64,000 nucleotides of DNA from a virus: IMG/VR virus record IMGVR_UViG_3300042387_002391, one strand, 5' to 3'. The notes under the pieces are model-generated. The model made no database searches. It was given only the letters and a program-made list of their open reading frames with translations, and was not told the origin of the DNA. The position numbers and the translations under genes were made by a program. Below, piece after piece: positions 666 to 54,079 of the stretch. The stretch's first letter is position 1. Each line of letters opens with the position of its first letter.

Positions 666-799
666 GATTTTACTTATCTAAAATGGTTAAATTTTTAAGG
701 TTTGAAAGGTAGTATTTCCGAATTTATTTATCTGACGTTCGATAATTTTTGTATCAAATAAATGGTTGAACGTATTTAAAATTAAATTAATTAATTCTA

Positions 800-2690: not shown

Positions 2691-4793
2691 TTAAATAATT
2701 TCTTGGAAGTTTTGGCTCGTGCGGGTTGCAATAAAGTCAATCAAAATAAATTCCGAACTCCGTACAGCCTTCAAATAAATGCTAACCAAAAGTTCGTTAT
2801 TATCGATGACATCAGGTGTGTTAATTCTTTCGTCGCAGACAATTTCAAAGTCAAAAAGTCCTTCTGTGTTCTTTGCAAACTCAAAAATTGGAGTAATAAC
2901 ACTCTTCAGACGAGTCCTTGTAAATTCGGTATTTGGTTCAAACACAAAATACTTCAAGGTTCTTTGAGTTGCTCTTTCGAGAGTTAGGAACAATCTGCGA
3001 ACATTGATGCGATCAAAAGCAGTTGGTTTTGTTTGAAGGGTTTTTTGACCCATTACAGCAAATCCGTCTCCACTAAAGAACACAACAGGGTTTACAGAAA
3101 TTTCATAAAGTCTGTCGCGTTGTTTTTGATTTGGATTGAAAGCAATATCGAGAGCATTGAAAGTGCCTCTGTTGAGACCTGCTGGAGCAAACCATGGTTG
3201 AGAGACCGCATCATTGCGAGCAAATGTTGCAGCAGCATAACCTGAAAACGGTACCCACATTCTGCGACCTGTAAAGATATCAGAAACTTTGACCCAGTTA
3301 CCATACATTGCAGCATAGTTGCTTTCAGAGCTAGCAATCTCTTTGAGGGGATTGTAAATGTCTTGGGTAAATGTTTTTCCTTCAGAATCAATTACTTTTG
3401 AGTCTCTGCCCAATACAAAAATAGGACGAAGAGGATCGATAATTGCCATGCAATCTTTGCGAGTATTTTGAGCAAAGTTGACAAGTGTGTCAGAAACTGC
3501 GCGGAAGTCATCAGTCAAGGCAGAAACATCGCTGACGAATGTTTCATCATTGAAGGAGCTAATTCCGAGCGTATTTGTCATTGCAAATACTGTAGAAAGA
3601 CCGGCATCAACAATAACATCAACAATAGTGTTTTCAATGCTTTCGAGAGGACGAAGAGCTTTGTCAAGCTTTCCTGGAACGCTTCCGATAACTTTCGAAA
3701 CGTCTTGTGAGCGGCTGTCGGGAGTAAAGACGCCAAGAGGGAAGAGAGCTTTGGCTCCGTCAGTAACAGTAACGCGAGAGGTCGGAAGAGTGGAGTTAAC
3801 AGCCCATTGATAGCTCTTAGAGATTGCTGGGTTGATATACATCTTAATTGTCGGAGAGGCATCGTTGATATTATCTCCAATGAATGCGTTTGAAAGAATG
3901 CCACCAGTTGGGCTTACTTGGCGTCTGTTATAATCAAATGAGCCGAGGTACTTTTCAGTTGTTGCGAGGGTTAACATTGTTGCGTCTGAAGTAGAACGAC
4001 GAACTTTATAAACACCGAGGGAAAGATGATCTTGATATTCATCAGTTTCGAAACCGATGAAGCCAACCTTTTCGAGAGATTCAGAAATGCTATACAAGCC
4101 TCTGTTGCTGTCTGCAAGAGTTGCTGAAAGAGCAAAGTCGATGCGATCTGTCGTAATCGAACCAAATGTATCAGAAGCAGTAAGAGTCGTTAGAGCAAGA
4201 ACCGATTCGAAGTTTGGTGAGCTGGTGGAAACCGCAAGGTTGTCTGCAAAGCCAACATAGTAGCCTTCTGCATATTCATTGACAACTGTTTGGAGGTCAT
4301 TAAGAATGAAGAAGCCGGCGTTAATTTCGACATCACCTGTAAGTTTAGCAGAAAGAACGGAAGAACCGGTGCCAACCCAATCAAAGTTGCCTTCAACGAG
4401 CTTTGTGTATTGCTCTTGGCTCATGCTTGCCGCAATTGGCGCACCAATCTCCCATTCGCCAGTTGCTGAAGTCATTGGATAGAATAGAGCTCCAAAAGAA
4501 TTGGAATAAGCAGAACCAGTGTTTGCTCCGTATGGTAAACGAACAGTGTTCAGAACGCCAGGAGAATTGAGAACTTCTTTACAGCTGTAGTAAAAGTACA
4601 TTTCAGCTGGTGTCGAAGGAATGCCGTAAATTGATTCAAATTCGCTTGTTGAAGTAATCAACAAAGGCTCGCTGACAGGACCTTGGGGAGCAAAGCCAGG
4701 AACAACGATTGTCGTGCCTGCTTGAATTTGTGTACGAAGTGAAAGATCTTTTTCAGTAATCTGAACGCCGGGTGAGTTAATGATTCTTGCCAT
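2691..4793 (-). CDS. gp18: Contractile tail sheath protein (gp18)
   Basis: SPGVQITEKDLS N-terminus; PWFAPAGLNRG, DRINVRRLF and FEPN motifs. Confidence 0.95.
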   Translation of the reverse strand: MARIINSPGVQITEKDLSLRTQIQAGTTIVVPGFAPQGPVSEPLLITSTSEFESIYGIPSTPAEMYFYYSCKEVLNSPGVLNTVRLPYGANTGSAYSNSFGALFYPMTSATGEWEIGAPIAASMSQEQYTKLVEGNFDWVGTGSSVLSAKLTGDVEINAGFFILNDLQTVVNEYAEGYYVGFADNLAVSTSSPNFESVLALTTLTASDTFGSITTDRIDFALSATLADSNRGLYSISESLEKVGFIGFETDEYQDHLSLGVYKVRRSTSDATMLTLATTEKYLGSFDYNRRQVSPTGGILSNAFIGDNINDASPTIKMYINPAISKSYQWAVNSTLPTSRVTVTDGAKALFPLGVFTPDSRSQDVSKVIGSVPGKLDKALRPLESIENTIVDVIVDAGLSTVFAMTNTLGISSFNDETFVSDVSALTDDFRAVSDTLVNFAQNTRKDCMAIIDPLRPIFVLGRDSKVIDSEGKTFTQDIYNPLKEIASSESNYAAMYGNWVKVSDIFTGRRMWVPFSGYAAATFARNDAVSQPWFAPAGLNRGTFNALDIAFNPNQKQRDRLYEISVNPVVFFSGDGFAVMGQKTLQTKPTAFDRINVRRLFLTLERATQRTLKYFVFEPNTEFTRTRLKSVITPIFEFAKNTEGLFDFEIVCDERINTPDVIDNNELLVSIYLKAVRSSEFILIDFIATRTSQNFQEII

Positions 4794-4865
4794 ATATTTT
4801 ATTTATCTAATTTCGGATTATTTTTTCGTTTGCGCATAAAAAACCTGTATTTTTGCGTGCAAATT

Positions 4866-5486
4866 TTATTTAATGGCGTTCAGATTATTTTTCTTCTTTC
4901 TAATCATATTAAATTGATTAAATTGAAAATCCGCAGTAGTTTCAAGAATTTCTCCGTCTCTATAAGAATAGTTAATTCCTCTCAAATTTGTAATAAAAGC
5001 ATTGTGATAAACAAATTCGACAACAGTTTCATTATATTCATTCAGTGCAAGAATTGAAAAAGTGGTTTGATATTCATTAACCATTCCGCTTTCCATGCTT
5101 GCTGCAGCAGTCATCAAAGCTCCTGGTGTTCCATCATAAATACTCAAGCGCGGATCATTCAAAACAGCAAGCCATCTCCACAACACATAATAATTTTTAT
5201 AATCATTATCAACAACAAAGTTAACAGAAATTGGGGGATGGTTTGGACGATGGTGTGAAGAAAAGTTCAGTGTCTGACCGACCCAATCTACTTCCACGGC
5301 TGGTACAGTAATGTCTGGCACAATTGTTCCGTGAACACTAATTTGCACAGAATCAATATCTAAGTCTGGATCGGTTTTGCTCATCTCTCTTAAAATCTTC
5401 GGAAGAGTTAAGACAAGAATAAACTTATCCTTCGAAGCAACGTTCAAAGGAGACTGGAGTGTTGGATTTTGGCAAATTTCAGACAT
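4866..5486 (-). CDS. gp3: Tail completion/sheath stabiliser (gp3-like)
   Basis: ISVNFVVDNDYKNYYVLWRWL motif; position next to the sheath gene. Confidence 0.65.
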   Translation of the reverse strand: MSEICQNPTLQSPLNVASKDKFILVLTLPKILREMSKTDPDLDIDSVQISVHGTIVPDITVPAVEVDWVGQTLNFSSHHRPNHPPISVNFVVDNDYKNYYVLWRWLAVLNDPRLSIYDGTPGALMTAAASMESGMVNEYQTTFSILALNEYNETVVEFVYHNAFITNLRGINYSYRDGEILETTADFQFNQFNMIRKKKNNLNAIK

Positions 5487-8612: not shown

Positions 8613-10195
8613 TTTCTTTAATTAGTTTGTTTAATTTCTTTTAAAACAGGAGGCTCTAAAAGAAATTCTAAGCAAGTGTTAAGAATTTTTTGTTTGTCTT
8701 TGTAATAATCCATTTCTGGAATGTGCAAAATCTTGCAGTTAATTGCTTCTACAATTTGTTGATCTCTTTTTTGATCATTTTGAGTTCCTCTTCGATTTCT
8801 TTCGTCGTGCCAATATGCTCCATCAAATTCAATGCACTTGTTAATGCTCTTAATAAAGAAATCCAACCTTCTGTAAGTAGTAGATGTTTGAACTTTGTAT
8901 TCAAGAGTTTTTCCCGTATCTTCTTTAGCACCATTGTTAAAGGTTGCAAAGAAAATATCCGAAGGATCAAACAATTGTTTTATTTTCTCGTAAATTGACC
9001 AAAATAATTCTTGTGAAACCTTTGAATATACAGAAGATTTGTTTGAATCCATCCATTTTTTTGTAATTCCTTTTCTAATTTCTGTTGCTTCTTCAAACGA
9101 GCATTCGTGTCTCCTAGCAATAGCTTCTACAGAATTTGTTGTTTGTCTTTCTCTCACTTTTTCTTTTGCCTCTTCTTCTGTATATCCTCTTTTCAACCAA
9201 TAACCTTTTTGGTTTGGCATATTTTGAAGTTCTTTTTGTCTTTGGCTAATTTTTTCTCCGTTATCGTTTCTATTCTCAAATTTGTTGTGCCACAAAACGT
9301 TGCAAGACGAATTGTGACAAAAGTTTCTGTAGCCTGCTTCAATATTGTAGAACGGAACTGGTTTACAGCACCATTTACAAGTGCCTGTTGCAGAAGGATC
9401 AACATATTTTTTGTAGTAGTCCTCCAGAGGCATTTGCAATTTTGCTATGTGCAATGAAAGTCTGCTGAGAGAGGGAAATTTTTCGCCGTCAATTGCGCAT
9501 TGATATGTTAAATCGTCTGTTGTATATACGCCTTTCTTGAGTTTAGAATCTCTGTTATAGTGAAGCGTGCAGCAAGCATTTGTTCTAGTTTGTTCATAAG
9601 GAACTTTGTTGTCGCAAGAAGCAAGTCTGCATTTTGTATCATCCAAAATGTATTTGTTGTAAAGAAATTTTTTCTGCTCACTAGAGAAGTTATTTTTTGT
9701 CATGCACAAAGCAATTCCTGCCCAACCTGAAAAATAATTGTTGATTTCTTCTACGTATATAAAATTTTTGATGGCTGATTTGCATTTTTCTTTGTCCTTG
9801 TATTTTTTAAAAGTCTTTTTAATAATCACTCCGCAAAACAAGCCGCAAGATTTATATGTCTCGTAAGTTAGTTTGCGGTCAGTAATCATGCACCTCGGAC
9901 ATATGTCGGAAGTAAAAATAAAGGTATCATAAAAATTCTTGACGTTGTTCTTTCCCTCTTTTGTAGACACAGCTCTCAGCAGGCCTGTAACGTTGTTGTA
10001 ATTTTTATTTTGGTAGGTTATATGGTTTGCCATAAAGTTATTTATCTACCTTTAAGGCCTTTTCAACTTTGACTCGAAACTAAAATTGCTGCTAGACTAT
10101 TTAGAAGCTAGTTCGAACAAGTCTTTGACTGAAATTTCCTGTATTTCTCCAGTCTTTTTGTTGCGAACCTTTATAATACTTTCAGATTGAAGGCA
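8271..10195 (-). mobile_element. Atypically split intein 1 of terL: IntN 32 aa (10100-10195) and IntC 114 aa (8271-8612) flanking an endonuclease gene
   Basis: RQVGK|CLQSESIIKVR...KDLFELASK* and MAEIIE...CADEH...NGILSHN|S; splicing would restore Walker A RQVGKST. Confidence 0.88.
8618..10033 (-). mobile_element. Free-standing homing endonuclease gene (Vsr-like/DUF559 PD-(D/E)xK domain, Zn-finger modules)
   Basis: LDFFIKSINKCIEFDGAYWH; CKWC..F....GYRNFC module; sits between the split-intein halves. Confidence 0.85.
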
Positions 10196-11586: not shown

Positions 11587-11668
11587 GTTTTTAATTACTA
11601 CTAATAATGCACTAGGTCTAGCAAAAGACAATAACGAAAAAAAAAACAATTTTAGATAAGTAAATTAT

Positions 11669-24995: not shown

Positions 24996-25024
24996 AAAAG
25001 GAGAGTTTTGGACTCTCCTTTTTT
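24996..25024. terminator. Intrinsic terminator
   Basis: aaaaaggagagt-ttgg-actctcctttt-type inverted repeat with A/T tails. Confidence 0.8.
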
Positions 25025-25049
25025 AGCAGTTGACTCTTAACTAAAGTTT

Positions 25050-25412
25050 TTATTCATCGTCAAACAATTTCACTACGTCAGCACTTTTCTGTTGAGCAGG
25101 CTGCGGAGGTGCAAAAAGCTGATCATACTGAGCAGCAAATTGAAAAGCAAAAGGAATTGAATCGCTGAGAGTAATATTTGCCTTATTAAAGTGCCATACC
25201 GTTGGTTGACCTTTATCTGCTTGAAATTCCTTGAAAAACAAGGGAAGAATTTGAAGCTGGAGTTGGTTTGTTTGTGAATTTGGTTGGATATGAACCAGAG
25301 CAGGATTCTCAATAGTCAGAGTGGTCTCTGTTTGCTTAATTGCTTTTCCGATGACTGTTCGTCCGATTGTATCGAGGAACACTGTTAGTTCTTTGTTGGT
25401 TGTTTCACTCAT
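25050..25412 (-). CDS. Hypothetical protein
   Basis: 120-aa ORF ending VVKLFDDE. Confidence 0.6.
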   Translation of the reverse strand: MSETTNKELTVFLDTIGRTVIGKAIKQTETTLTIENPALVHIQPNSQTNQLQLQILPLFFKEFQADKGQPTVWHFNKANITLSDSIPFAFQFAAQYDQLFAPPQPAQQKSADVVKLFDDE

Positions 25413-25774
25413 AATTTGTAAGCCTTGACCTTCTTTGATTTTTTAGAAAGTTCAACAACCTGCGTGACATAAAGCAAAACTTTTTCTCCTTTCGGAGTTA
25501 GCATAATTCTGTCATCCGAAGCAATCCAAATCAGATCATAAACTTCGAGCATGTACATAAAATCTCCGGCAAGGTCGCAAGTAATATAATCAACAAGATA
25601 ACAATCCTCATTTACAATACTTTTTAAAGTATCATAGAGCTCTTGATAGGAAAGAGCTTGAAGAATTTGTTCTGCAGAGTACACAAAGGTAATTAGTTCA
25701 CATTCCAAACATTTCAAAAAGATCTGTCTGAACTTCTTTTCCAATTTGCGGTAAAGACCATCCAATTGCTTCAT
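25409..25774 (-). CDS. Hypothetical protein (possible winged helix; true start probably further downstream)
   Basis: IMLTPKGEK wing-like motif; ATGA overlap with the next gene. Confidence 0.45.
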   Translation of the reverse strand: MKQLDGLYRKLEKKFRQIFLKCLECELITFVYSAEQILQALSYQELYDTLKSIVNEDCYLVDYITCDLAGDFMYMLEVYDLIWIASDDRIMLTPKGEKVLLYVTQVVELSKKSKKVKAYKL

Positions 25775-27320
25775 ATAAGCGCTCAGTTGGTTGCGTGACT
25801 AATTTTGCAAACATCCTATCCCAATCTGGCTTCAGACCAAATTCTAAAGGAAGTGTCGAAACGTATGTAATTGCGTCCAAACCGTATTTGTTCTTTGTGC
25901 AATATAACTTCTTAACTTTCTGTCCAGTCTGAATTGCTTCAAATTTATCATCAATTTTAAACTCTTTAATAAGAATATTATAAGCAATTGCTCCTTTGAC
26001 ATGAGAAGGAGTTTTATTTGCAAATTTGTAGAGCGATGATCCTTCTGCATATTTGTCGAGATTGTTAATAGAAGTTCTGGCAGCAACATCATTAGGATCA
26101 AGATTCAAAAATTCATTATAACCTTCTCTATAAACTTCGTTGGTTTGCTTTATATTTTGAGTAAGAAGTGCTGTTTGAATAATTTTTTCAATAAACTTCT
26201 TAACTTTCTTCGGAGTTGTTGAGCGAACAAGTTCAATTCCTGTATATTTAAATTTATCTACAGCAACGCCCTCTTCATCAAGAACGTGAAGAACATATCG
26301 CTTCTTTTGCAAGAATATTCCAACATCCGAAATAACTTCTCTCTTGAAAACATATCGAGGATCAACTGAAAATAATTCTTTCCTAGCCCACTCGAGAATT
26401 TCTGTATTGACTACTTTATCGAGTTCATCAACAATTTCATGAACCTTTTCATTAACCTTTCCATCAATTGTAAGAGGAATGTTTTGCTTTTGGAGAATTG
26501 GATCAATTGTTATATAAACAGAATTATGAACAAGAATGTCATTAGCAAAGAAAGTATGCTCTGTGTCATCTGCCATTTCAATATCATAAACATATTCATC
26601 TTCAAACTCTCCAATGTGTTCTACTGAAGTAATATCAACAATTAAAGGGGTTCTGTTTACATTTACAACAAATTTATCAGTATCTTTGCAAACTTGCTTT
26701 GGAGGCAATCTCAACAAAGTATTGTCTCTCCAAACCATGCAACCATGATCTTCTGTCATTATTACTTCGTTGCCATTTGCACAAACTTTATATTTGCCTT
26801 TTGAAACTTTGTGACGAATGAGCTTTTTTATTTTTCCAAAAACAATTTCGTGATTTTCGGAATTATAAGTCAAACATTGCAAATCGATGTCAGAAACATC
26901 CAAAATTTCATGACCAAATTGTGAGAGGTCTGTTGGACTGTTTTTGAATTTTTCATACAAGTCACCAATGCAAATATCCCCTTTATTAGTGGTTATAACA
27001 GTGCTAAAAATTTCACTGTCCGTATCGCCATATTTGGTAACTGACTCAGAAATGCCGTATTTTTCTCTTACAAAATTGTCAAGAATGTTTCCTCCAGCCT
27101 TGGCAACGCTTTGGCCAGTTGCTGTAATAGATGAGGCATGATCCAAGTCCATCAAAGACGAGTGTTTGTTAGACGTGACACCATAGGCGCTGTTCAAGAG
27201 CACCTTCAAAGCGGCATTAAGATTGTTGTAGTGGGTTATACTCCATACCATTTTCTTCTCTAATTCCTTCAACTCTTCTAGAGTCATTTCTTGATAGGAT
27301 TTTTTTGTCATATGGTTCAA
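25698..27320 (-). CDS. gp43: Family B DNA polymerase fragment C (fingers-2, palm, thumb) with intein
   Basis: KVLLNSAYG, YGDTD|S, KKRY and GIELVRS motifs; clamp-binding-like tail DLFEMF. Confidence 0.92.
   Translation of the reverse strand: MNHMTKKSYQEMTLEELKELEKKMVWSITHYNNLNAALKVLLNSAYGVTSNKHSSLMDLDHASSITATGQSVAKAGGNILDNFVREKYGISESVTKYGDTDSEIFSTVITTNKGDICIGDLYEKFKNSPTDLSQFGHEILDVSDIDLQCLTYNSENHEIVFGKIKKLIRHKVSKGKYKVCANGNEVIMTEDHGCMVWRDNTLLRLPPKQVCKDTDKFVVNVNRTPLIVDITSVEHIGEFEDEYVYDIEMADDTEHTFFANDILVHNSVYITIDPILQKQNIPLTIDGKVNEKVHEIVDELDKVVNTEILEWARKELFSVDPRYVFKREVISDVGIFLQKKRYVLHVLDEEGVAVDKFKYTGIELVRSTTPKKVKKFIEKIIQTALLTQNIKQTNEVYREGYNEFLNLDPNDVAARTSINNLDKYAEGSSLYKFANKTPSHVKGAIAYNILIKEFKIDDKFEAIQTGQKVKKLYCTKNKYGLDAITYVSTLPLEFGLKPDWDRMFAKLVTQPTERLYEAIGWSLPQIGKEVQTDLFEMFGM
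26523..27017 (-). mobile_element. Cis mini-intein (165 aa) at the polB YGDTD|S site
   Basis: Ser start, MTEDH block B, FANDILVHN|S end. Confidence 0.9.
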
Positions 27321-28524
27321 AATATTTTAAGTCTTCGTCTGTTAAATTTAACACGATGTCGATTACTCGTTCGTCTTCTATCTTAGCATTCTTTTTCTTA
27401 TTTTCTACTGAAGTTAACATTTGTAGGTTTTTAAAGTGTGACATTTTTTGGGGATCAATGTCGTGCTCAAAGCCGTAAATTTTAGGTAGAACATGGTCTA
27501 TGTGAAACTTCTTTAATCCTCTCGGAAGATTGTCGGGATTAATAACATTTCTGTGGAGTCTATATGATATGGTCGTATAATACTCTACTAAAAATTTGTA
27601 TTCTGCCCACTTTTCAGGATCTCTATGTTTTCTATTGCTTAGTCCTGTATATGTCCATCTACATCTTTCGCTACAAAAATCACGATAACCTGTATTAAGC
27701 GTTTTAAACTCACAAGGCTTATTGCAAAAAAGACATTCGTCAGGTTTATCTTTTTCATACATGAAAAGATGATACGATTCAGGTTTTGTTTTTGCTGGAT
27801 ATTCTTTTACAATTTTCGAATGAATTGAAGGAAAGTAATGTTCTACGAAATACGTCATCGAACAATAATCGATCTTATTGAGCTCTGTAATAAATTCGTG
27901 CAAGTTTTTCTCATCGTGTTTGTTAGCAAATTCTGCAAGTGCTTGATATGAGTATCCCACCGACAATGTTTGAAACTGCAAGTGTTTGCCGTTGCAAATT
28001 ATTGGTTCTATATCATGATAATAACAGTAAAGAGCTTCCCTGTTATGTTTGCATTTTTTTCTAATTTCTTTGAGTTTTTTGTATTCGTCAGGAAAGGCTA
28101 GTTTAGCAACATCGATCAATTGTACTCCTGAAAGTTTATTGTCAGCGCATACCTTTATTATGTCTTTCAGCGAACTTTTGTTGTTGGTATTTTCGATGAG
28201 AACATGCACATTAACGTTTTTCCAAACATACTTGGTGGAAACTATAATGTCGTTATAAATCAACGGTGTATAATTTTTTTCTGTAAAAGAAATTTTTTTA
28301 AACTCGCCGCTTACGGTTTTATAGTACACTGTCTTTCCTTCAACCTTTTTCCAAAGATCCGGATAATCTGATTTAATCTTAGCAAAACTATCTTTGGTGT
28401 AGTTTGCGTTAATAAATTTTCTTGGAGTAGAAAGAGTTTTTGTAATCAACTCTACCAACTCATTATTTTCTTCAGAACTTCCGTAAGTAGGGTTTTCGCT
28501 ATTGTTACTATTATCAATTATCAT
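27217..28524 (-). mobile_element. Free-standing HNH homing endonuclease gene inside polB
   Basis: HIDHVLP...NLQMLTSVENKKK; CLFC..F....GYRDFC module. Confidence 0.85.
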
Positions 28525-28548
28525 GATAATAGTATTTATGCTATAAAT

Positions 28549-29841
28549 TTATTTTTCTTTGGATTTAATAGCCTTTTTGATTTTGGCGAGCTCTTGCTTA
28601 AAATAATTCATCTGATCCTTACTTTCTACACGCTCTTTGTAGATCTGATCGATTAGATTTGGAAGAATACCTTTGGTTTTTTGACTATACAATACTCCAG
28701 CCTTAGTGAGTGCTACATTTTCTTTGACTAGGAATTCTTTAAATTTTTGTCCCGAAAGCGTATGAATCTTGCCATTCAAAAGCCTTATCGAAATTTCTCC
28801 TTTTGGATCATTAGCAATATTCCCGAAATCTCCTTGAACAACTTTCCCTAATTTTGTTTCTGGAGAAATGTTTAATGTAATAATAGTATTGGGATATAGT
28901 GAATTAACGTCAAAACTCACAATCGACTTTTGAATACCTCTTTCTGGATCTCTTACAAACCCTCCTTCAAAAGCTTCTCTGTCAAGATTGTTCGGAAAGG
29001 TGGGAATAACCATTCCTTGTTTATGAGCCTGAATAGCAACTGCTCCCGTAACAACTGCAACTTTTCCGAGGGCTGCTTCAAAATTTGTGCATCCCTTATA
29101 AGCAATCATTCTAGCAATTTCCAAGAATTTGAGCTTTTCTTCAAGCTTTACGAGCAAATGCACATCTTGAATATTGTAATCTACAAACAATTTCCAGTCT
29201 GTATGAGCCAATTCACCTAAGCTAACTGCATTATAAGCAATCTTTCCTTCTCCGAGTTCAAGTTCAGCAATATAATTTAAACTAAACGATTCTTTCTCTC
29301 CAGGCGAAAAGGCTTTATAAAGATCCATGTAATCAATCAAAGACACTCCGCTAATCGACCATACAGTAATTTCTTTACCCATGTCAGTAAAGACTTTCCT
29401 TCCTCTCACATTTCCAACTGGCGACAACTGTTTTACGAAGTCGTCGCCAAAAATTCTCGTAAATCGATTAATGATATAAGGAAAGTCAAACCCAGAAGAA
29501 TTCCAACCTGAAGCAATATCTGGATAATCGCTCTTCCAAAAATCTACAAATTGCAAGATCAAATCTTGCTCATCCTTACATCTGTGATAAATGCAATCAG
29601 GAAGAGTTGGAGTATATTGCTCCTTAAGTCCCCAAGTATGAGTTGCTTTGGTTAAGGTATCATAAATTGTTATCAAATTGATAGGAACGGCTGCTCTCTC
29701 AGGAACTGGGAACTGTCCTCTCTTTGCGTAACAAGTTTGAGAGTAGCTAACCCATTTGTGCTGTTCTTCATCATACACCTCATATTCTTCTTTATCAGAA
29801 AGTGTTAAAAAATTTTCTATGCTAATTTGTTGTTCTGTCAT
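28549..29841 (-). CDS. gp43: Family B DNA polymerase fragment B (exonuclease II/III, motif A, fingers-1)
   Basis: GWNSSGFDFPY, YNIQDV, FDVNSLYP motifs; ends in the fingers helix. Confidence 0.92.
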   Translation of the reverse strand: MTEQQISIENFLTLSDKEEYEVYDEEQHKWVSYSQTCYAKRGQFPVPERAAVPINLITIYDTLTKATHTWGLKEQYTPTLPDCIYHRCKDEQDLILQFVDFWKSDYPDIASGWNSSGFDFPYIINRFTRIFGDDFVKQLSPVGNVRGRKVFTDMGKEITVWSISGVSLIDYMDLYKAFSPGEKESFSLNYIAELELGEGKIAYNAVSLGELAHTDWKLFVDYNIQDVHLLVKLEEKLKFLEIARMIAYKGCTNFEAALGKVAVVTGAVAIQAHKQGMVIPTFPNNLDREAFEGGFVRDPERGIQKSIVSFDVNSLYPNTIITLNISPETKLGKVVQGDFGNIANDPKGEISIRLLNGKIHTLSGQKFKEFLVKENVALTKAGVLYSQKTKGILPNLIDQIYKERVESKDQMNYFKQELAKIKKAIKSKEK

Positions 29842-30622
29842 ATGAATATCTGTTGCGATAAGTAATCATTCTGCTTCTAGCTTTAGGATTAATGGTCAAT
29901 AAATATGCCTCAAATTCTTTCTCACTCATTTTTCCTAAACGTTCTGTTAGAATCTGTGGCTGATTTGTCTTTTTTCCTTTTGATATATTAGCTCCACGTT
30001 TCTTATGGTCAACGTTTTTGTTGTGAAGAGAATTTAAGCATCTTTGAATTTTTTGTTCAGGTGTCAACGTTTGAATAAAGGTTTTAAGAGTGTTGCTGAC
30101 ATTTTTATATTTTTCTTCTTTCGTAATTTTTGGCTTTTGTACTTTAGGAGCATAATTATGTCCAAACAAATACTTGCTTTGTTTTTGCTTGACAGGGTTT
30201 CCGCACCCACAACAACACAGCGGCAGAGGATCCTTGGGAGGTCTTGGTTTAGATAACATTGCTTCTCTTATTTTTTGCCTTACTTCAGGACACTTGGTTG
30301 GGTGATTTTTAGCAAATTCGATGCGCGCAATCTCAAATTGTTTGCTGTTAAAAAATCGCTGGTGGTGATTCTTTGAACACATTTTATTGAATGCTGAGGC
30401 CAGCTTGCTTCTCACTTGTATCGAGTCGTTTTGATGAATTTTGCATAACAATCTGTGTATTAGAAAGTGTTCTCTTGCCGTAAGTTTGACTAAATTGTCG
30501 CGATCATTTGTTCCGCCTAAACATTTTGGTAAAATGTGATGTTTTTCGTAGTATTGGCCACTTATTGTTTGTCTGGATTTAGATCTTTCAATAATCGAGT
30601 CGTGCACATTTTTATAATTCAT
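29822..30622 (-). mobile_element. Free-standing HNH homing endonuclease gene inside polB
   Basis: EKHHILPKCLGGTN..NLVKLTAREHFLIH; C-terminal CCCGCG and basic DNA-binding region. Confidence 0.88.
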
Positions 30623-30625
30623 ATG

Positions 30626-30648
30626 TGCGTTTACTTAATCTAAACGCA
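30626..30648 (-). promoter_or_regulatory. Hairpin overlapping a late-type TAAGTA promoter before the HNH start
   Basis: TGCGTTTA-GATTAAG-TAAACGCA, ending 3 nt before the ATG. Confidence 0.65.
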
Positions 30649-30668
30649 ACATCTACCTCGATATCAAA

Positions 30669-31070
30669 TCATGTTTGCCGTTTTCTAATCTTGATTTTGT
30701 GTGATTTTGGATATGATGAGGTATCAACTTCAATATCCAACAAAAATACTTTCAAAGGAAATTGCGAAAAGGTTGGATCTCCATTCTGCTCCTTATACAT
30801 ATCAATAAGGAATTGCTGTTCTGGTCCAAGATTATGAAAGATTCTTTTGTTAGCTGTGTTGTCTACAAACTTCTTGCGCTCTAAACTATTCTTAAAAGTC
30901 TTCTTCATCAAAGAAGTCTTGAAAATCGATACAGCATCTTCTGCACCATCCTTCTCAAGATACAAAAACGGACGAAAAGGAATCTCTGTATCAATTCTCT
31001 GACCATCTTCTGTCCAAGTTCTCAAGAAGACCGATTCATTAAAAGGATTGTAGGAAGCAGCGCGATACAT
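30669..31070 (-). CDS. gp43: Family B DNA polymerase fragment A (N-terminal domain, ExoI DIE)
   Basis: PFRPFLY and LKVFLLDIEVD motifs. Confidence 0.88.
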   Translation of the reverse strand: MYRAASYNPFNESVFLRTWTEDGQRIDTEIPFRPFLYLEKDGAEDAVSIFKTSLMKKTFKNSLERKKFVDNTANKRIFHNLGPEQQFLIDMYKEQNGDPTFSQFPLKVFLLDIEVDTSSYPKSHKIKIRKRQT

Positions 31071-31105
31071 GCTTCCTACAATATACTAAACCAAACTAAA
31101 ATCAA
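31047..31105 (-). promoter_or_regulatory. polB promoter TTGATT-N16-TATTGT with a 13-bp hairpin over the start codon
   Basis: ATTGTAGGAAGCA / TGCTTCCTACAAT perfect inverted repeat (31047-31059, 31070-31082). Confidence 0.75.
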
Positions 31106-33528
31106 ACTAAAAATTTACGATCCTTTGAACCAAATGGCGTGAAATAAACTTCATGATATTTCATCAAATTCTTTTCATCATCAAGCCAGAATTTTTCCGC
31201 ATATGCTCGAGCCTTTTTACAATGTTCTGCGTAAATGCTTTGGTTTTTGAGAACGGTTTTTAGACAGTCAATGAACTCTGCACCAGTCTTATATTTTAAA
31301 GAAGCATCTTTGTAGGTAACCATATCAGGACATACGCAAGGAAGACCAAGGGCACCCGATTCGATTAATTTAATATTGCTATTGTGCGAAACTATTCCAT
31401 TAGCAATATAAGACTTTGTAGCTGGAACGCAAATATCATACACAATTTCTTCATCTTCTAGATGCTCGATAGAAACAACTTCGTCTTTCCATTGAAATTC
31501 TTTGTATGCGTTGCTGTGAGACTTACTGCAAATATTGCGCAAGCGTTGTTTTTTAAATTCGGAAACAAAACCAATTTCTTTCTCGTAAATATCGCAACCC
31601 TCTCTGGTAATTCTAATATTGTAATGATGACCAGTATAAACTTTTTCGGTTTCCTTCGATTTACCGAATGGTCTGGTGTACATAGAAATTTCTTTCTTAA
31701 TTTTGCTATGAATACCAAAGCCAAGTAGTAAAATCTGTATGTCTTTAGCAAATTTTTCTGACTTAGTGCAGAATAAAATATCAGTACCATTTCTTCCGAC
31801 TGTAGCATCGGCTTCAAACAAACCTTTGATAAACTGAGCTACTACCGATTTTCTTGATTGCCAAATAAAGTTCGGAACAAACAAGTTCTTGCTTTGTTTT
31901 CTTGTTGTTAGTCCCATCCATTCAAACATCCTTCTGAGCAATCTAGAGTTACAAGAAATGGTTTGGTGGTTAGTAAAGTCGTATGTAGATTGATAGCGCT
32001 TTGGCTCAATACCTAACTGACTAATTAAATATTTCACATCTTCTATGACTTCTTGGTCTCTGTTGCAGCAAACGATCGAAATGCAATTACCAGCTGAAAA
32101 ATGACCGTCTCCTAAAATGTAGCCAAACAGTCGAGCAAACTCTTCGTTAAATCTCACCAAAGGAGAAATGGCCTTGTCTTGAATGTGAATAAAGTCTTCG
32201 ATAGTTATTTTTTTAGTATTCCAAAACGGAAGCTGAATTTCTTGATATGGTAAATTTTCTTCCAATTGATACTTAGAAAGATTCACGAAATCGCCAATTT
32301 TTATGTCTTTCATTTCAGTCCAATCACTGTCTTTTGAAATTCTGTGAGTGATGGTCCCTTTAATCTCATAGCCCATTTTTGTGACCACCTTAATAATTTT
32401 TTCCGTCTTCGGAGAAATATAGTAAGCATTGCTCTCTTCAAATTTATTGTCCTGAGAAAGCGTCTTAAATTTTACATTGTTTTTGTTATTTTGATCAAGC
32501 TTACTAACTGAGTTACAGTAGTCTTCAATTTTAATTAATCCCTTTCCTTTAACTTGAATCATCGTGTCGCCCGTAACGCATTTGCTGCGATTGAAATGAT
32601 TATCTTGAAGAGCTGCAAAGGTTACCTGTGCTCCAGATTTTGCCATTGCTTCTGGAAACTCGACAAGAGGAGCCCACGGAAAGAATCTCATTTCTCCGCT
32701 ATCAATAAATGGCTTGAGAGGAAGTGGATAAGATCCGTAAAAGTGCCATTGAAAATCTTTGCGTGTTTTAATAATGTTCGGAACAACAAATTCAAAGTCA
32801 TCCTTTTGATTAACTCTATTCATTACATCAACATGCGTTCCGGATGCAAAAATAGCAACGATGGGTTTCTTCTTATTCTTATCAAACTTCTTAATGAGAT
32901 CTCCAAGATTATAATAGCGGTCAAACCACCATTTCATCAGATAGTTTGGAACAGTTGTAACATTCTTGTTACCTGTCTTATTAATCATATAGTCTCTAAA
33001 ATAATCACAAGTAACCGTGACTTCGTCCATCATAGAAATAATTTCTAAAATGCTGTTACGGATTTCGTCAGAAACAAATGCATCTCTATTCCTATTATAC
33101 ATTGGAATGTCTTCATGGAATACGACGTCATCGACTTCATAAATCAGCTTCAGAGGCTTTTGTGTTGAAATTTGTTTGAGAATTTTAACAAAGTCTCTTT
33201 GATGAGGAGTTGCTTGCCTTTGAAGTTTAACAGCTTCGACTGTCTGATAGAATTTTGGATCAAGCACCATTGCTGTTGATTCCATGATAACTGCTTTCTG
33301 ATACAAGTTGAGTAAAAGATTTGGAGCCATGCAGCGGTAATATCCACATCCGCCATAATCAGCAAGATAGTTTAGAGCACGCTTCAAACCTTCTCCGGGA
33401 ACTTCTGGTGCTGGAACTGGTCTTTGTGCAGGAGAACGGTTAACATATGATGGAGAAGGAATGCCAAATGGAAGGCCGTGTGGTGCTCCAATCATATTTT
33501 GGATGCCTAATTGTACAGGTTGTGACAT
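31102..33528 (-). CDS. GT-B glycosyltransferase-like protein containing a LAGLIDADG intein
   Basis: GGCGYYR, YEVDD, DNHFNRSK|SNIKLIE after splicing. Confidence 0.8.
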   Translation of the reverse strand: MSQPVQLGIQNMIGAPHGLPFGIPSPSYVNRSPAQRPVPAPEVPGEGLKRALNYLADYGGCGYYRCMAPNLLLNLYQKAVIMESTAMVLDPKFYQTVEAVKLQRQATPHQRDFVKILKQISTQKPLKLIYEVDDVVFHEDIPMYNRNRDAFVSDEIRNSILEIISMMDEVTVTCDYFRDYMINKTGNKNVTTVPNYLMKWWFDRYYNLGDLIKKFDKNKKKPIVAIFASGTHVDVMNRVNQKDDFEFVVPNIIKTRKDFQWHFYGSYPLPLKPFIDSGEMRFFPWAPLVEFPEAMAKSGAQVTFAALQDNHFNRSKCVTGDTMIQVKGKGLIKIEDYCNSVSKLDQNNKNNVKFKTLSQDNKFEESNAYYISPKTEKIIKVVTKMGYEIKGTITHRISKDSDWTEMKDIKIGDFVNLSKYQLEENLPYQEIQLPFWNTKKITIEDFIHIQDKAISPLVRFNEEFARLFGYILGDGHFSAGNCISIVCCNRDQEVIEDVKYLISQLGIEPKRYQSTYDFTNHQTISCNSRLLRRMFEWMGLTTRKQSKNLFVPNFIWQSRKSVVAQFIKGLFEADATVGRNGTDILFCTKSEKFAKDIQILLLGFGIHSKIKKEISMYTRPFGKSKETEKVYTGHHYNIRITREGCDIYEKEIGFVSEFKKQRLRNICSKSHSNAYKEFQWKDEVVSIEHLEDEEIVYDICVPATKSYIANGIVSHNSNIKLIESGALGLPCVCPDMVTYKDASLKYKTGAEFIDCLKTVLKNQSIYAEHCKKARAYAEKFWLDDEKNLMKYHEVYFTPFGSKDRKFLV
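31381..32580 (-). mobile_element. Intein (400 aa) with LAGLIDADG endonuclease
   Basis: CVTGDT start; LFGYILGDG and FIKGLFEADA motifs; ANGIVSHN|S end. Confidence 0.92.
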
Positions 33529-33559
33529 AATTTTAATTTATTTGTAATTTGATTTTAAT

Positions 33560-35356
33560 CTAGCTCGTGACGGTCGAAATTCCGTTTTGTTTTGTAACAT
33601 GAATAACATGCTCTGCTTTTGAAAGCACTTCTGGTCCTCTGTGAGTAATAATGTAACAAGATTCATTATTTTCATTAAACCGCTCACGAAGAACTTTGAG
33701 AGTCAAAGAAACGCCTTTATCATCTAGCGAAGAATCAAGAAGCTCATCATAAAAAACCGTGCTAAAATTTACATCGCCTTGCAAACGACGAATATCTGCA
33801 AAGGCAAACAGGCAGGCGAGGTCAATACGTTTGCGCTCTCCTCCAGAAAAGTTGAAGTAAGACTTTTGTTGTGAATTTTCATCAATGATTTCTTCATCAA
33901 AGAACTCATTAAACTGACACAAGCAATTTGCTTCAAGCTTTTTAAGATAGTAAGCAATTCTCGAATTAAGAACTTTGAGAATTTTTTTGACAATGAACGA
34001 CTTAATTCCTTCTTCAGAAAGAACGAATTTTACCGTTTCAAGAATATTCAGTTCGTTGTTGAGCTTATCCACATTTGCTTTTGACTCCACAGCAACATTT
34101 TTAAGCGTCGTAATTTTTCCTTTGAGGTCATTATTGTGTTCTTTAGAAGCGCATTTTATGTCGTCTTCAACTTCGTTTAAATTGCCTTCCAAATGCTTAA
34201 TACTAATCTGTAGTGAATTTACGTCAGAATGTTGTTTTTGAATGGAAGACTTTTTAGTATTCAGCTCTTCTCGCTCTTCTCTTAATTTTTTTGCATTTTC
34301 ATTGACTGAAGAAACTGATTCACCAACTACGACTTTTGCCTTTTCGTATGTTTGGATTGTTTCTTGATGCTTTGCAATTAAATCTTGAACATGCTTTACA
34401 TGCTCTTCAGAGTATTCTCTGTTACAAGTCGGGCAAGAGTCTTTGTTTGTTTGCAGTTGTTTAATTTGCTTGTTCTCTGCATTGATTTCTGCATCAATCT
34501 TATGAATTTTAGATTGCAAAGAAGTTTGTTTTTCTTGCAAAGTATTCAAAGATTCTTTTACTTTTAAAAGTTGTTCATCAATCTCTTTATCAGAAACAAT
34601 TTGATATTTTGCTAACTGCTCTTTGAGATTAGAAATATCTACTATCAACTTAGCCTTCTTATCGCTAAGTTTATTGACTCTTTCTTGTTTGATAGTTTCG
34701 TAGTTGTCAAATTGAGATTGGTTGAAATTTAGTTCGTTTTCTGTTTGCTCAAATTTTGAATAAGCAATTTCATAGTCCTTTTTTGCAATACTATGATCAT
34801 CTCGAGCCTTCAAAACCATTTGTGTAAAAACTTCTAGACCAAGAACGCTCTCGATAAATTTTCTCCTATCAGTCTTCGGTAGCGCCATAAAGGGCTGCGC
34901 ATTATTTGCTGACATGATAACAGAGTTTTGAAAGACAGTTGCTGGCGTATGAATCAAATCCTGAATAAATGCATTTGTTTTAGCAAGTGTTGATCTCGTA
35001 ACATCTTCTCCGTTCTTAAAGAGTTGGCATTTTGTTGGACCAAGCTTTCTGCAAATTTTATAAGTGTCCGTAACATTATTAGAAGTTACATCAAACTCCA
35101 AAGAAACTTCACAGCGCTTTTGAGTAAAGCTGTTTTGAATAAAATCCTTAGGAATCTCCCTAAGTGTTGTGCCGTAAAGCGAATAATAAAGAAATTCTGT
35201 AATGCCGCTCTTCCCAGCAGCATTTTTAGAATCTTCTTTATCGAGATTTGTTCCGACAATAGCATTGACTCCTGGTCTAAGATCGACTTTTACAGGAACA
35301 TCACCAAACGACAAAAAATTTCTTCCTTCTAAAGTCTTAAAATTAATAAAACGCAT
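33560..35356 (-). CDS. gp46: Rad50/SbcC-like recombination ATPase (gp46)
   Basis: NAAGKS, CPTC zinc hook, FSGGE and YDELLD motifs. Confidence 0.95.
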   Translation of the reverse strand: MRFINFKTLEGRNFLSFGDVPVKVDLRPGVNAIVGTNLDKEDSKNAAGKSGITEFLYYSLYGTTLREIPKDFIQNSFTQKRCEVSLEFDVTSNNVTDTYKICRKLGPTKCQLFKNGEDVTRSTLAKTNAFIQDLIHTPATVFQNSVIMSANNAQPFMALPKTDRRKFIESVLGLEVFTQMVLKARDDHSIAKKDYEIAYSKFEQTENELNFNQSQFDNYETIKQERVNKLSDKKAKLIVDISNLKEQLAKYQIVSDKEIDEQLLKVKESLNTLQEKQTSLQSKIHKIDAEINAENKQIKQLQTNKDSCPTCNREYSEEHVKHVQDLIAKHQETIQTYEKAKVVVGESVSSVNENAKKLREEREELNTKKSSIQKQHSDVNSLQISIKHLEGNLNEVEDDIKCASKEHNNDLKGKITTLKNVAVESKANVDKLNNELNILETVKFVLSEEGIKSFIVKKILKVLNSRIAYYLKKLEANCLCQFNEFFDEEIIDENSQQKSYFNFSGGERKRIDLACLFAFADIRRLQGDVNFSTVFYDELLDSSLDDKGVSLTLKVLRERFNENNESCYIITHRGPEVLSKAEHVIHVTKQNGISTVTS

Positions 35357-54026: not shown

Positions 54027-54079
54027 GATTTTATTTATCTAAAAATAGAAAATTTTCTCCTCAGACCTTAAATAACATT

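What the first reader, a model, noticed from the sequence alone, without database searches (positions are those of the whole stretch)
25698..31070. Three-piece DNA polymerase with no splicing elements at either break
Seen: fragments A, B and C are separated by two free-standing HNH genes, with only 46-nt and 24-nt spacers and overlaps at the downstream sides. This leaves no room for group I intron cores, and there are no HN-ending IntC halves at the breaks. The B/C break is at the fingers coiled-coil tip (B ends ..ELAKIKKAIKSKEK; C starts ..MTLEELKELEKK). Established: two-subunit gp43 split in the fingers occurs in some T4-like phages. The extra A/B break separates ExoI from ExoII/III, implying a composite proofreading site in a non-covalent heterotrimer.
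Basis: partly seen in the sequence, partly recalled or inferred. Interest (0 to 1): 0.72.

Follow-up and report, generated by a model that had tools for sequence, protein, structure and literature searches.

The report
Phage DNA polymerase in three pieces
A freshwater T4-like phage encodes its replicative DNA polymerase as three genes cut apart by two mobile nuclease genes, and the first cut comes with a conserved tail-and-head pair that travels with the nuclease and probably holds the pieces together without splicing.

Summary
On the minus strand, a family B DNA polymerase is encoded as A (133 aa, ExoI), B (430 aa, ExoII, ExoIII, motif A) and C (motifs B and C). The pieces are separated by a MobE-like HNH gene and by a second nuclease gene of a private family that has an HNH-like motif.

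Nineteen relatives (54-94% identical) keep both sites uninterrupted and lack both nuclease genes. Identical contigs from three other lake metagenomes bridge every junction.

No intein half or intron was found at either break. The intron scan is weak: it missed one of two T4 control introns, and no RNA data exist.

New here:
- A's basic tail and B's acidic head are conserved. A head profile finds 36 cluster representatives that start with the head.
- In three representatives and two fetched loci, tail and head form one in-frame module of about 58 aa.
- Between two diverged phages, tail, nuclease gene and head are about 99% identical while the polymerase flanks are about 75-80% identical. The unit therefore moves as one cassette.
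- A complex model places A's ExoI strand in its canonical slot in B.

Most likely this is a non-covalent three-subunit polymerase, a new variant of the Aeh1 nrdA/mobE and split gp43 cases.

The parts
30669..31070 (-). polB fragment A, 133 aa: N-terminal domain plus the ExoI strand (DIEV at 30726-30737)
   Evidence: It is 94% identical to the N-terminus of the uninterrupted L003 polymerase. dN/dS against L003 is 0.027.
30672..30719 (-). A tail, 16 aa, net charge +6, with the conserved IKIRK motif. It is absent from uninterrupted short-form relatives.
   Evidence: The same tail, 11 residues after DIE, occurs in P0121, P0124, P0130, P0132, L038 and L118.
30651..30668 (-). Partial second copy of the ExoI codons, directly after the A stop. 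It is in frame, 72 nt after the first copy, and differs from it mostly at third codon positions.
   Evidence: A similar copy occurs in L038, L039, L148 and L172. It is absent in L118 and L152.
30627..30647 (-). Hairpin (7-bp stem, 7-nt loop) ending 5 nt before the HNH1 ATG. The loop resembles the TAGATAARTAA promoter-like motif of this phage but carries a one-base insertion.
   Evidence: z = -2.3 for the 66-nt stretch.
29822..30622 (-). HNH1: free-standing MobE-like HNH homing endonuclease gene
   Evidence: phrog_655, E = 7.8e-43. Aligns with T4 MobE through the HNH motif. Pfam HNH is below its cutoff.
28549..29841 (-). polB fragment B, 430 aa: ExoII (29485-29508), ExoIII (29164-29178), motif A (28891-28911)
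29713..29841 (-). B head, 43 aa, net charge -5, with the conserved YEV(W/Y)DE...W...SCY-type motif
28552..28608 (-). B tail: 19-residue extension of the ascending fingers helix, past the point where DNA likeness to relatives stops
   Evidence: Similar tails occur in P0006, P0019 and L178.
27217..28524 (-). HNH2: free-standing gene of a private family with an HNH-like motif (27391-27501) and a Cys cluster
   Evidence: Seven homologs at 53-80% identity. Invariant H341, D343, H344, N366 and N375. hhalign to the MobE-type motif gives E = 0.006. No Pfam HNH hit.
25698..27311 (-). polB fragment C (ATG at 27311; an in-frame TTG lies at 27320): descending fingers helix with motif B (27180-27206), motif C, palm and thumb
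26523..27017 (-). 165-aa mini-intein inside motif C: YGDTD | Ser1 ... block B TxxH ... HN | Ser+1
   Evidence: Solved polB intein 9hth matches at E = 9.2e-17. The site is empty in 13 relatives.
29713..30720 (-). Insert 1 as defined by loss of DNA likeness to uninterrupted relatives: 1008 nt in place of 16 nt in L003
27186..28612 (-). Insert 2 plus diverged flanks as defined by loss of DNA likeness: 1427 nt in place of about 106 nt in L003

Best explanation
The polymerase gene has been invaded at two sites by free-standing homing-endonuclease cassettes, and at a third site, inside piece C, by an intein.

Shown from sequence and comparison:
- The gene is in three ORFs.
- Relatives are uninterrupted at both breaks.
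- The first cassette consists of a basic tail on A, a stop codon, a MobE-like nuclease gene, and a new start with an acidic head on B.
- This unit is conserved in many lineages and moves between phages as a block bounded by the ExoI codons and the next conserved strand.

Inferred:
- A, B and C are translated separately.
- The intein removes itself from C.
- The three chains assemble non-covalently.
- A's ExoI strand slots between B's second strand and its ExoII strand, which makes a composite proofreading site. The tail and head act as a clasp that holds it there.
- B and C join through the two long fingers helices, as in known split gp43 enzymes. The polymerase site is then also composite: motif A comes from B, motifs B and C from C.

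By carrying its own clasp, the nuclease cassette would make its insertion into an essential active-site region harmless to the phage.
For: 1. Anatomy and motifs.

2. Nineteen IMG/VR relatives (L003-L022) are uninterrupted at both break sites and have no HNH1 or HNH2. Thirteen of them carry a single ORF of 848-852 aa. P0001, 96% identical to B, reads through both break sites.

3. Contigs identical to the window bridge all junctions in runs X2, X3 and X5.

4. A is under strong constraint: dN/dS is 0.027 against L003.

5. The tail is conserved in free-standing A-type proteins at 38-74% identity, on contigs up to 112 kb. The codons for KIKIRK differ synonymously between the window and L038.

6. 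The head is conserved.
- B-type proteins P0048, P0056, P0062 and P0088 carry it.
- A head profile searched against 1.84 billion representatives gives 40 hits at E <= 0.001. Of these, 36 start with the head and have no ExoI before it, 3 have it internally, and 1 is spurious.

7. L080 and L077 carry tail plus head as one in-frame module of about 58 aa, so these stretches are coding sequence.

8. Tails are +4 to +9 and heads -4 to -6 in every lineage checked.

9. Cassette mobility. Between L038 and L039, 1056 nt from the ExoI codons to just past the head show 10 mismatches. The flanks match at about 19-28 of every 30 nt.

10. Complex model of A with B.
- Score 0.85, best of 3 controls 0.00. In the tool's calibration the mark was reached by 58 of 80 solved complexes and 2 of 110 mismatched pairs.
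- The runs agree in at least 89% of contacts, and the partner's pLDDT is at least 85.
- A 106-114 contacts B 56-62 and B 105-113. The tail (118-131) and head residues 1-9, 19-23 and 36-45 lie in the interface.
- Whole gp43 structures are solved, so the core placement may come from that likeness. The calibration counts hold only roughly with my own alignments.

11. Precedents.
- Split gp43 subunits of phage 25 co-purify and are active (PMC2988022).
- Pfu polymerase split at the fingertip keeps full activity (PMC3061061).
- The Aeh1 NrdA tails that arose with the mobE insertion are essential (PMC3045599).
Against: - There is no transcript, protein or activity evidence for this phage.
- The Rfam intron scan is a weak negative. 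Under the same settings it found the T4 nrdB intron but missed the T4 td intron, which carries an ORF.
- The clasp role of tail and head rests on conservation, charge and one model, not on a binding test.
- Charge complementarity is not consistent at the B/C break.
- HNH2 is not proven to be a nuclease.
- The origin of the tail/head module is unresolved.
Confidence: 0.8

Rival explanations
1. RNA splicing. [quoted passage not shown]
For: - HNH nucleases are often intron-encoded in phages.
- Phage 25 has a group I intron in gene 43B (my recollection of Petrov 2010; not read here).
- By homology, 97 and 109 nt of insert 1 lie outside the HNH1 ORF.
- The Rfam scan cannot exclude an intron, because it missed the T4 td intron in the control.
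- A continuous tail-head form exists in L080 and L077.
Against: - No group I or group II model matches at E <= 10, in the 9-kb scan or in the two narrow scans.
- The sequence outside the nuclease ORFs is conserved coding sequence (tail and head). That leaves only 46 and 24 nt of non-coding spacer.
- 36 cluster representatives begin with Met at the same point of the module.
- The MobE family is free-standing in T-even phages (PMC2988022).
- The nuclease ORF overlaps the start of the downstream piece in both the window and L038.
Confidence: 0.05
2. Protein-level joining. The tail and head are the halves of a degenerate or atypical split intein, or another ligation device, that covalently joins A and B.
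For: - Relatives do use split inteins with free-standing nucleases at motif C (L005, P0001).
- hhalign aligns them in that register.
Against: - Tail plus head total only about 58 aa.
- There is no block B TxxH, no terminal HN, and no nucleophile after the head, which ends GQ followed by F.
- hhalign against inteins is not significant: E = 0.22 and 0.57.
- In L080 and L077 the module stays in the protein as an in-frame insertion.
Confidence: 0.03
3. A is dispensable. B's head fills the place of the ExoI strand, so the enzyme is a B+C polymerase without proofreading, and A has another role or is decaying.
For: - HMMER aligns B's head region with the gp43 stretch that holds the ExoI strand. That aligned stretch alone is not significant (i-E = 66).
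- The Pfam exonuclease-domain match on B starts inside the head, at residue 26.
- The head lacks the catalytic Asp and Glu.
Against: - A is intact and under strong constraint.
- A-type genes with the same tail persist in many lineages.
- The model places A's strand, not the head, in the canonical slot.
- Profile comparison of the head with the pre-ExoI region is not significant: E = 0.05 and 0.17.
Confidence: 0.06
4. Dead gene. The insertions inactivated the polymerase, and the phage relies on another enzyme.
For: Three interruptions lie in one essential gene, and no whole genome is held to check for a second polymerase.
Against: - All six catalytic motifs are intact, and there are no frameshifts or internal stops.
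- The same architecture recurs in dozens of diverged clusters.
- The identical sequence occurs in several lake samples.
Confidence: 0.03

Closest known systems
Aeromonas phage Aeh1 nrdA-a / mobE / nrdA-b (Friedrich 2007; Crona 2011, PMC3045599)
   Same: - A free-standing MobE-type HNH gene splits an essential enzyme gene inside its active-site region.
- The nuclease gene overlaps the downstream piece.
- Both pieces carry extra tails that are absent from uninterrupted homologs.
- The active site is composite.
   Different: - The host gene here is a DNA polymerase, and the site lies between ExoI and ExoII.
- The tail/head pair is conserved across dozens of diverged clusters.
- It is seen moving with the nuclease as one block.
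- It also exists fused in frame in rare relatives.
- Nothing has been tested biochemically.
Split gp43 of T4-related phages 25, 44RR, 31, 65 and 133 (Petrov 2006 and 2010, as described in PMC2988022 and PMC3061061)
   Same: - A family B polymerase is split at the fingers tip into two cistrons, in one case with a free-standing homing nuclease gene between them.
- The subunits co-purify and are active.
   Different: - The nuclease in phage 25 is seg-like (GIY-YIG). Here it belongs to a private family with an HNH-like motif.
- This phage has a further break after ExoI, giving three pieces, plus an intein.
Fractured genes with split inteins and free-standing nucleases (Dassa 2009, PMC2677866)
   Same: A nuclease gene lies between two halves of a replication gene in uncultured aquatic phages. 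Relatives of this phage have exactly that arrangement at motif C (L005).
   Different: At the two breaks studied here there are no intein halves. The intein in C is contiguous and lies elsewhere in the gene.
Engineered split Pfu polymerase and the natural split PolB of Methanothermobacter (PMC3061061)
   Same: They show that family B polymerases tolerate being cut into separately made chains that assemble 1:1.
   Different: Those cuts are in the fingers or palm. [quoted passage not shown] I found no report of a cut between ExoI and ExoII in the papers searched.

Membership tests
Family B DNA polymerase (T4 gp43 type) | ExoI, ExoII and ExoIII motifs, polymerase motifs A, B and C, and sequence likeness to gp43 | tested here: met
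   - Pfam DNA_pol_B_exo1 and DNA_pol_B match B and C.
- RB69 gp43 matches B at E = 1.6e-45 and C at E about 8e-17.
- A has no Pfam or PDB hit on its own but aligns to the N-termini of relatives.
Gene in pieces made by a free-standing homing nuclease (Aeh1 nrdA/mobE type) | A nuclease ORF with its own start lies between the pieces, and close relatives are uninterrupted | tested here: met
Gene in pieces made by a free-standing homing nuclease (Aeh1 nrdA/mobE type) | No intron or intein restores continuity at the break | tested here: inconclusive
   - Intein marks are absent at both breaks.
- No Rfam intron hit, but the control found only 1 of 2 T4 introns.
- No RNA run is available.
Gene in pieces made by a free-standing homing nuclease (Aeh1 nrdA/mobE type) | The pieces carry extra tails that are absent from uninterrupted homologs | tested here: met
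Gene in pieces made by a free-standing homing nuclease (Aeh1 nrdA/mobE type) | The pieces assemble into an active enzyme, and the tails are needed for this | not testable with these tools
   Only a model is available: score 0.85 against a best control of 0.00.
MobE-like HNH homing endonuclease (HNH1) | Sequence membership and an intact HNH motif | tested here: met
   - phrog_655 at E = 7.8e-43.
- tblastn hits to annotated MobE and other homing endonucleases.
- Invariant motif residues shared with T4 MobE.
- Pfam HNH scores 17.3 bits, below its cutoff of 21.4.
MobE-like HNH homing endonuclease (HNH1) | Cleaves the nuclease-free allele and promotes its own spread | not testable with these tools
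   Indirect support only: the cassette is about 99% identical between L038 and L039 while the flanks are about 75-80% identical.
HNH (His-Me finger) nuclease (HNH2) | Match to an HNH model or fold | tested here: inconclusive
   - No Pfam HNH hit, even at E <= 10.
- The motif is invariant in 8 family members.
- hhalign to the MobE-type motif gives E = 0.006 over 41 columns.
- The AlphaFold model is poor in that region, and Foldseek finds nothing.
Split gp43 at the fingers tip | The break lies between motif A and motif B, in the tip between the two fingers helices | tested here: met
   - Alignment to uninterrupted relatives.
- C residues 34-106 align to RB69 555-628.
- B runs 19 residues past the KDQM that I equate, by my own alignment from a recalled RB69 sequence, with the stretch ending at RB69 M489. 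PMC3061061 gives M489 as the RB69 equivalent of its engineered Pfu split.
Split intein at the breaks | N-terminal nucleophile and blocks A and B on the upstream piece; blocks F and G ending HN plus a nucleophile on the downstream piece | tested here: not met
   Profile comparison of tail plus head with inteins gives E = 0.22 and 0.57.
Group I intron at the breaks | Match to the catalytic core model | tested here: not met
   No hit at E <= 10. This is a weak test.
Class 1 intein (inside C) | Ser or Cys at position 1, block B TxxH, terminal HN followed by Ser, Thr or Cys, and insertion in a conserved motif | tested here: met
   Pfam Intein_splicing is below its cutoff. The solved intein 9hth matches at E = 9.2e-17.

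The most novel reading that the evidence does not exclude
The MobE-like cassette is a self-neutralising gene splitter. Besides the nuclease gene it carries a portable two-part protein clasp: a basic IKIRK tail for the upstream piece and an acidic YEVWDE-type head for the downstream piece. Any family B polymerase it invades between ExoI and the next strand therefore stays functional as separate subunits. This would be a third route to harmless insertion, alongside introns and inteins, and it has spread through many lineages of uncultured T4-like phages.
Probability: 0.5. Interest if true: 0.75.

Novelty: new variant of a known kind. Interest (0 to 1): 0.6.

Why it matters
Mobile nucleases usually hide inside introns or inteins so that the host gene survives. 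Only a few cases are known where a free-standing nuclease cuts an essential gene and the pieces reassemble. For one of them, Aeh1 NrdA, tails created by the insertion are essential.

This locus adds three things.
- It adds a cut through the proofreading site of a replicative polymerase.
- It gives a three-subunit polymerase.
- It provides comparative evidence that the assembly tails are conserved and travel with the nuclease gene.

[quoted passage not shown] It also offers natural split points and a small clasp that could be useful for engineering split polymerases.

Tried and rejected
- **RNA evidence.** No RNA holder is listed among the sequencing runs, so splicing could not be checked on reads.
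- **Rfam scans.** Scans at E <= 10 found no intron. The T4 control shows limited sensitivity, so I count this as weak evidence only.
- **The look-up of encoding contigs.** The contigs of P0001, P0048, P0062, P0121 and P0124 could therefore not be read.
- **Whole genome.** None is held.
- **Nuclease homologs in IMG/VR.** Pattern searches with HNH1, with HNH2 and with the HNH2 alignment found nothing.
- **Fragment A against isolate phages.** tblastn gave no match.
- **DNA search of the locus against isolate phages.** It gave only short conserved stretches.
- **Single-sequence fold of the L080 long form.** The model was unusable, with pLDDT 35.
- **HNH2 model.** Confidence was low in the HNH region, and Foldseek found no match.
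- **Pfam on the isolated HNH2 motif.** No hit.
- **Origin of the module.**
  - The head against the polymerase's own pre-ExoI segment gave E = 0.05 and 0.17.
  - The module and the head against inteins gave E = 0.22 and 0.57 respectively.
  - A weak RNase_H_2 hit on the L080 module region had E = 0.011.
  - None of these is significant.
- **Charge complementarity at the B/C break.** It is not consistent across lineages.
- **Tail DNA pattern in IMG/VR.** Most of the 60 matches were chance hits, for example tail genes in L125 and L136.
- **Ribosomal bypass from the first to the second ExoI copy.** Rejected, because reading on from the second copy ends after 13 codons.
- **Joints in the laid contigs.**
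  - A joint 26600 to 28889 had a side of only 26 nt and was ignored.
  - The X3 joint 29686 to 30729 rests on one contig with a side of 30 nt. It is only a weak hint of a co-occurring relative without insert 1.


Full report
**What is there.** Between 25698 and 31070, on the minus strand, lie five ORFs in a row.
- A: 30669-31070, 133 aa.
- HNH1: 29822-30622, 266 aa.
- B: 28549-29841, 430 aa.
- HNH2: 27217-28524, 435 aa.
- C: 25698-27311 from its first ATG; an in-frame TTG lies at 27320.

HNH1 overlaps the start of B by 20 nt. HNH2 overlaps C by 95 nt.

The catalytic motifs are spread over all three pieces, so both active sites would be built from more than one chain.
- A ends with the ExoI motif DIEV.
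- B holds ExoII, ExoIII and polymerase motif A.
- C holds motifs B and C.

Genes in this window generally lack Shine-Dalgarno sequences, so ribosome-binding sites cannot be used to judge the new starts.

**Comparison with uninterrupted relatives.** A search of IMG/VR with B gave 34 loci. Nineteen of them (L003-L022, 54-94% identical) read straight through both break sites and have no relative of HNH1 or HNH2.
- Thirteen carry a single ORF of 848-852 aa.
- L018 has 1015 aa, including the intein.
- L003 and L005 stop only inside the intein.
- L017 and L019 are cut by contig ends.

P0001, 96% identical to B, also reads through both break sites.

DNA likeness to these relatives stops at 30721 and resumes at 29712. 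That is 1008 nt in place of 16 nt in L003. It stops again near 28613 and resumes near 27185, which is 1427 nt in place of about 106 nt.

The inserts are therefore wider than the nuclease ORFs.
- A has a 16-residue tail after DIEVDT.
- B has a 43-residue head before FPVPE.
- B has a 19-residue extension of the ascending fingers helix.
- C has an extended descending helix.

**Not an artefact.** Contigs from three further lake-water metagenomes of different studies (X2, X3, X5) match the window without a difference. They bridge the A/HNH1, HNH1/B, B/HNH2 and HNH2/C junctions. X1 may be the source sample and is not counted.

**Splicing elements.**
- Inteins. Neither break has the marks of an intein half. 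The tail is 16 aa with no block B. The head is 43 aa and ends GQ before F, with no HN and no following nucleophile.
- Introns. Rfam scans at E <= 10 gave no group I or group II intron. This held for 25000-34000 and for two narrow stretches that use the laxest filters.
- Control. The same scan on T4 found the nrdB intron (E = 2.6e-6) but missed the td intron, which carries the I-TevI ORF. The negative result is therefore weak.
- RNA. No RNA run holds this sequence, so there is no direct test.

The stronger argument against introns is that the stretches outside the nuclease ORFs are conserved protein-coding sequence, as the next two sections show.

**The tail and head are conserved parts of a module.**
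- Tails. Free-standing A-type proteins at 38-74% identity (P0121, P0124, P0127, P0130, P0132; contigs up to 112 kb) all end the same way. After DIE come eleven residues and then IKIRK or a near variant.
- Three-piece enzymes elsewhere. Free-standing B-type proteins of 420-435 aa (P0048, P0056, P0062, P0088; contigs up to 209 kb) start with the same head and end at the fingers tip. Three-piece polymerases therefore exist in other lineages.
- Breadth. A profile of five heads searched against 1.84 billion cluster representatives gave 40 hits at E <= 0.001. Of these, 36 begin with the head and have no ExoI before it, 3 have it internally near residue 140, and 1 is spurious.
- Loci. A | MobE-like gene | B-with-head occurs in L038, L039, L148 and L172 (one lineage, where B and C are fused). 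It also occurs in L118 and L152, a lineage only 30% identical in B.
- Continuous forms. In L080 and L077 tail and head are joined in frame as one module of about 58 aa between ExoI and the FP..P loop, with no nuclease gene.
- Selection. The KIKIRK codons differ synonymously between the window and L038, which indicates selection on the protein.
- Charge. Tails carry +4 to +9 and heads -4 to -6 in every lineage checked.

**The cassette moves as a unit.** L038 and L039 differ at 65 of 117 codons in A and at 165 of 356 codons in the B core. In contrast:
- the tail is identical;
- the nuclease gene differs at 8 of 269 codons;
- the head differs at 3 of 44 codons.

In 30-nt steps, identity is 19-27 of 30 upstream of position 3869, just before the DIE codons. 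It is 29-30 of 30 from there to position 4924, about 38 nt past the head, and then falls back to 20-28 of 30. That stretch has 10 mismatches in 1056 nt.

This is the signature of recent lateral transfer of tail, nuclease gene and head together. The unit is bounded by the two most conserved codon stretches of this region.

L038 and L172 are nearly identical from the tail onward but differ at 40 of 117 codons in A. The ExoI site is therefore also a recombination boundary.

**Model of A with B.**
- The complex job scored 0.85 (runs 0.89, 0.85, 0.83) against a best control of 0.00.
- In the tool's calibration the mark was reached by 58 of 80 solved complexes and 2 of 110 mismatched pairs.
- The runs agree in at least 89% of contacts, and the partner's pLDDT is at least 85. 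These counts hold only roughly, because my own alignments were used.
- A 106-114 (the ExoI strand) touches B 56-62 (the next strand) and B 105-113 (the ExoII strand), which is the canonical arrangement.
- The whole tail (118-131) and head residues 1-9, 19-23, 25, 30, 36-38 and 41-45 are in the confident interface.
- Whole gp43 structures are solved, so the core placement may reflect that likeness. The tail-head contact has no solved precedent that I know of.
- A is intact and constrained: dN/dS is 0.027 against L003.

**The B/C break.** It lies in the tip between the two fingers helices. This is the known hot spot for split gp43 in T4-related phages. There the subunits co-purify and are active, and phage 25 has a seg-like nuclease gene in the gap (PMC2988022, PMC3061061, PMC2677866).

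HNH2 belongs to a private family.
- It has seven homologs at 53-80% identity.
- It has an invariant H..DH...N...N motif and a Cys cluster.
- Pfam does not recognise it.
- hhalign links the motif to the MobE-type motif at E = 0.006.

L177 and L178 show the same B-tail | HNH2 | C-head order with a conserved C head. P0004 with P0136, and P0006 with P0140, share contig lengths. The same cassette therefore probably sits in relatives whose A and B are fused. About 500-aa A+B pieces ending at the tip are common.

**Other elements in the gene.**
- C carries a 165-aa mini-intein at YGDTD | S (26523-27017). It has Ser1, TxxH and HN followed by Ser, and it matches the solved polB intein 9hth at E = 9.2e-17.
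- The site is empty in 13 relatives and filled by the same intein in L018.
- In L005, and apparently in P0001 and L003, the intein is split, with a 340-aa free-standing ORF between the halves. This is the 'fractured gene' layout of PMC2677866.

The mature enzyme therefore needs one protein-splicing step, but not at the two breaks.

**How it most likely works.**
- Shown: three ORFs, mobile cassettes, a conserved tail and head, and an intein.
- Inferred: separate translation; intein removal from C; assembly of A, B and C; A's ExoI strand completing B's exonuclease fold, with the basic tail and acidic head acting as a clasp; B and C pairing through the fingers helices.
- Regulation. A 7-bp hairpin ends 5 nt before the HNH1 start. 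Its loop resembles the TAGATAARTAA motif found just upstream of five genes in this window, with one inserted base. L038 has TATAAATA before its nuclease gene. This recalls the late-promoter and hairpin control of T4 nuclease genes (PMC2988022), but it is only a resemblance.

**Comparison and novelty.** The closest known system is Aeh1 nrdA split by mobE, where tails that arose with the insertion are essential (PMC3045599). For the second break, the closest is split gp43.

New here are:
- the cut between ExoI and ExoII;
- the three-piece enzyme;
- the breadth of the head family;
- the evidence that the assembly tails are cargo of the mobile cassette.

I found no description of this in three full-text searches. 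That does not prove that none exists.

**Limits.**
- There is no RNA, protein or activity data.
- The intron scan is weak.
- The clasp role is inferred.
- The origin of the module is unresolved. It might be a duplication of the ExoI hairpin, an intein remnant or something else.
- It is open whether the continuous long form is ancestral or a fusion after nuclease loss. The 36:3 ratio favours the split state as the usual one.

**Earlier notes in this scan.** The scan had already noted this same stretch in another window. It also noted the clasp idea, the second ExoI copy and the promoter-hairpin arrangement. I had seen the second ExoI copy and the hairpin before that look-up. I tested the intein-derivation idea and found no support for it.

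Noticed in passing
window 31102-33528 (-): An 808-aa glycosyltransferase-like ORF carries a roughly 400-aa LAGLIDADG intein (Pfam LAGLIDADG_3 at E = 8e-23, plus Intein_splicing). Its homologs in L038, L039, L077 and L080 are 402-412 aa and have no intein.
   Followed up: partly
window 30651-30668 (-); L038 3942-3956: A partial second copy of the ExoI codons lies right after the A stop. In the window it is in frame, 72 nt downstream of the first copy. In L038, L039, L148 and L172 it is in another frame, 70 nt downstream. It is absent in L118 and L152. Its meaning is unknown; it may be a remnant of the insertion event.
   Followed up: partly
L005 5638-9767; also P0001 and L003: In close relatives the motif C intein is split. 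A 696-aa piece ends after block B, then comes a 340-aa free-standing ORF, then a short C-terminal intein half fused to the rest of the polymerase. This is the 'fractured gene' layout.
   Followed up: partly
L080 7599-11463: This is another way of cutting the same gene. A and B are fused with the tail-head module in frame. The gene is split at the fingers tip, and it then resumes with a C-terminal intein half.
   Followed up: partly
window 670-680, 4799-4809, 10038-10048, 11653-11663, 54031-54041: The motif TAGATAARTAA sits just upstream of five gene starts. There are 6 exact matches in the window, and 10 with up to one mismatch against 5.7 expected. It may be a late-promoter-like element of this phage.
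   Followed up: partly
whole window: Upstream regions of nearly all ORFs are AT-rich and lack Shine-Dalgarno sequences, which may hint at the host group.
   Followed up: no
window 27217-27311 (-): HNH2 reads 95 nt into C in another frame. Homologs P0136, P0139 and P0140 stop about 30 codons earlier, just after the start of C, so the extension is probably not needed.
   Followed up: partly
window 25409-25774 (-): A 121-aa ORF of unknown family overlaps the last 77 nt of C. It has no Pfam or PHROG hit.
   Followed up: no
L038 versus L172: These two loci are nearly identical from the A tail onward but differ at 40 of 117 codons in A. A recombination boundary therefore lies at the ExoI site.
   Followed up: partly
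window 29686-30729, run X3: One low-depth contig joins these two points, skipping 1042 nt. This is a weak hint of a co-occurring relative that lacks the first cassette.
   Followed up: no
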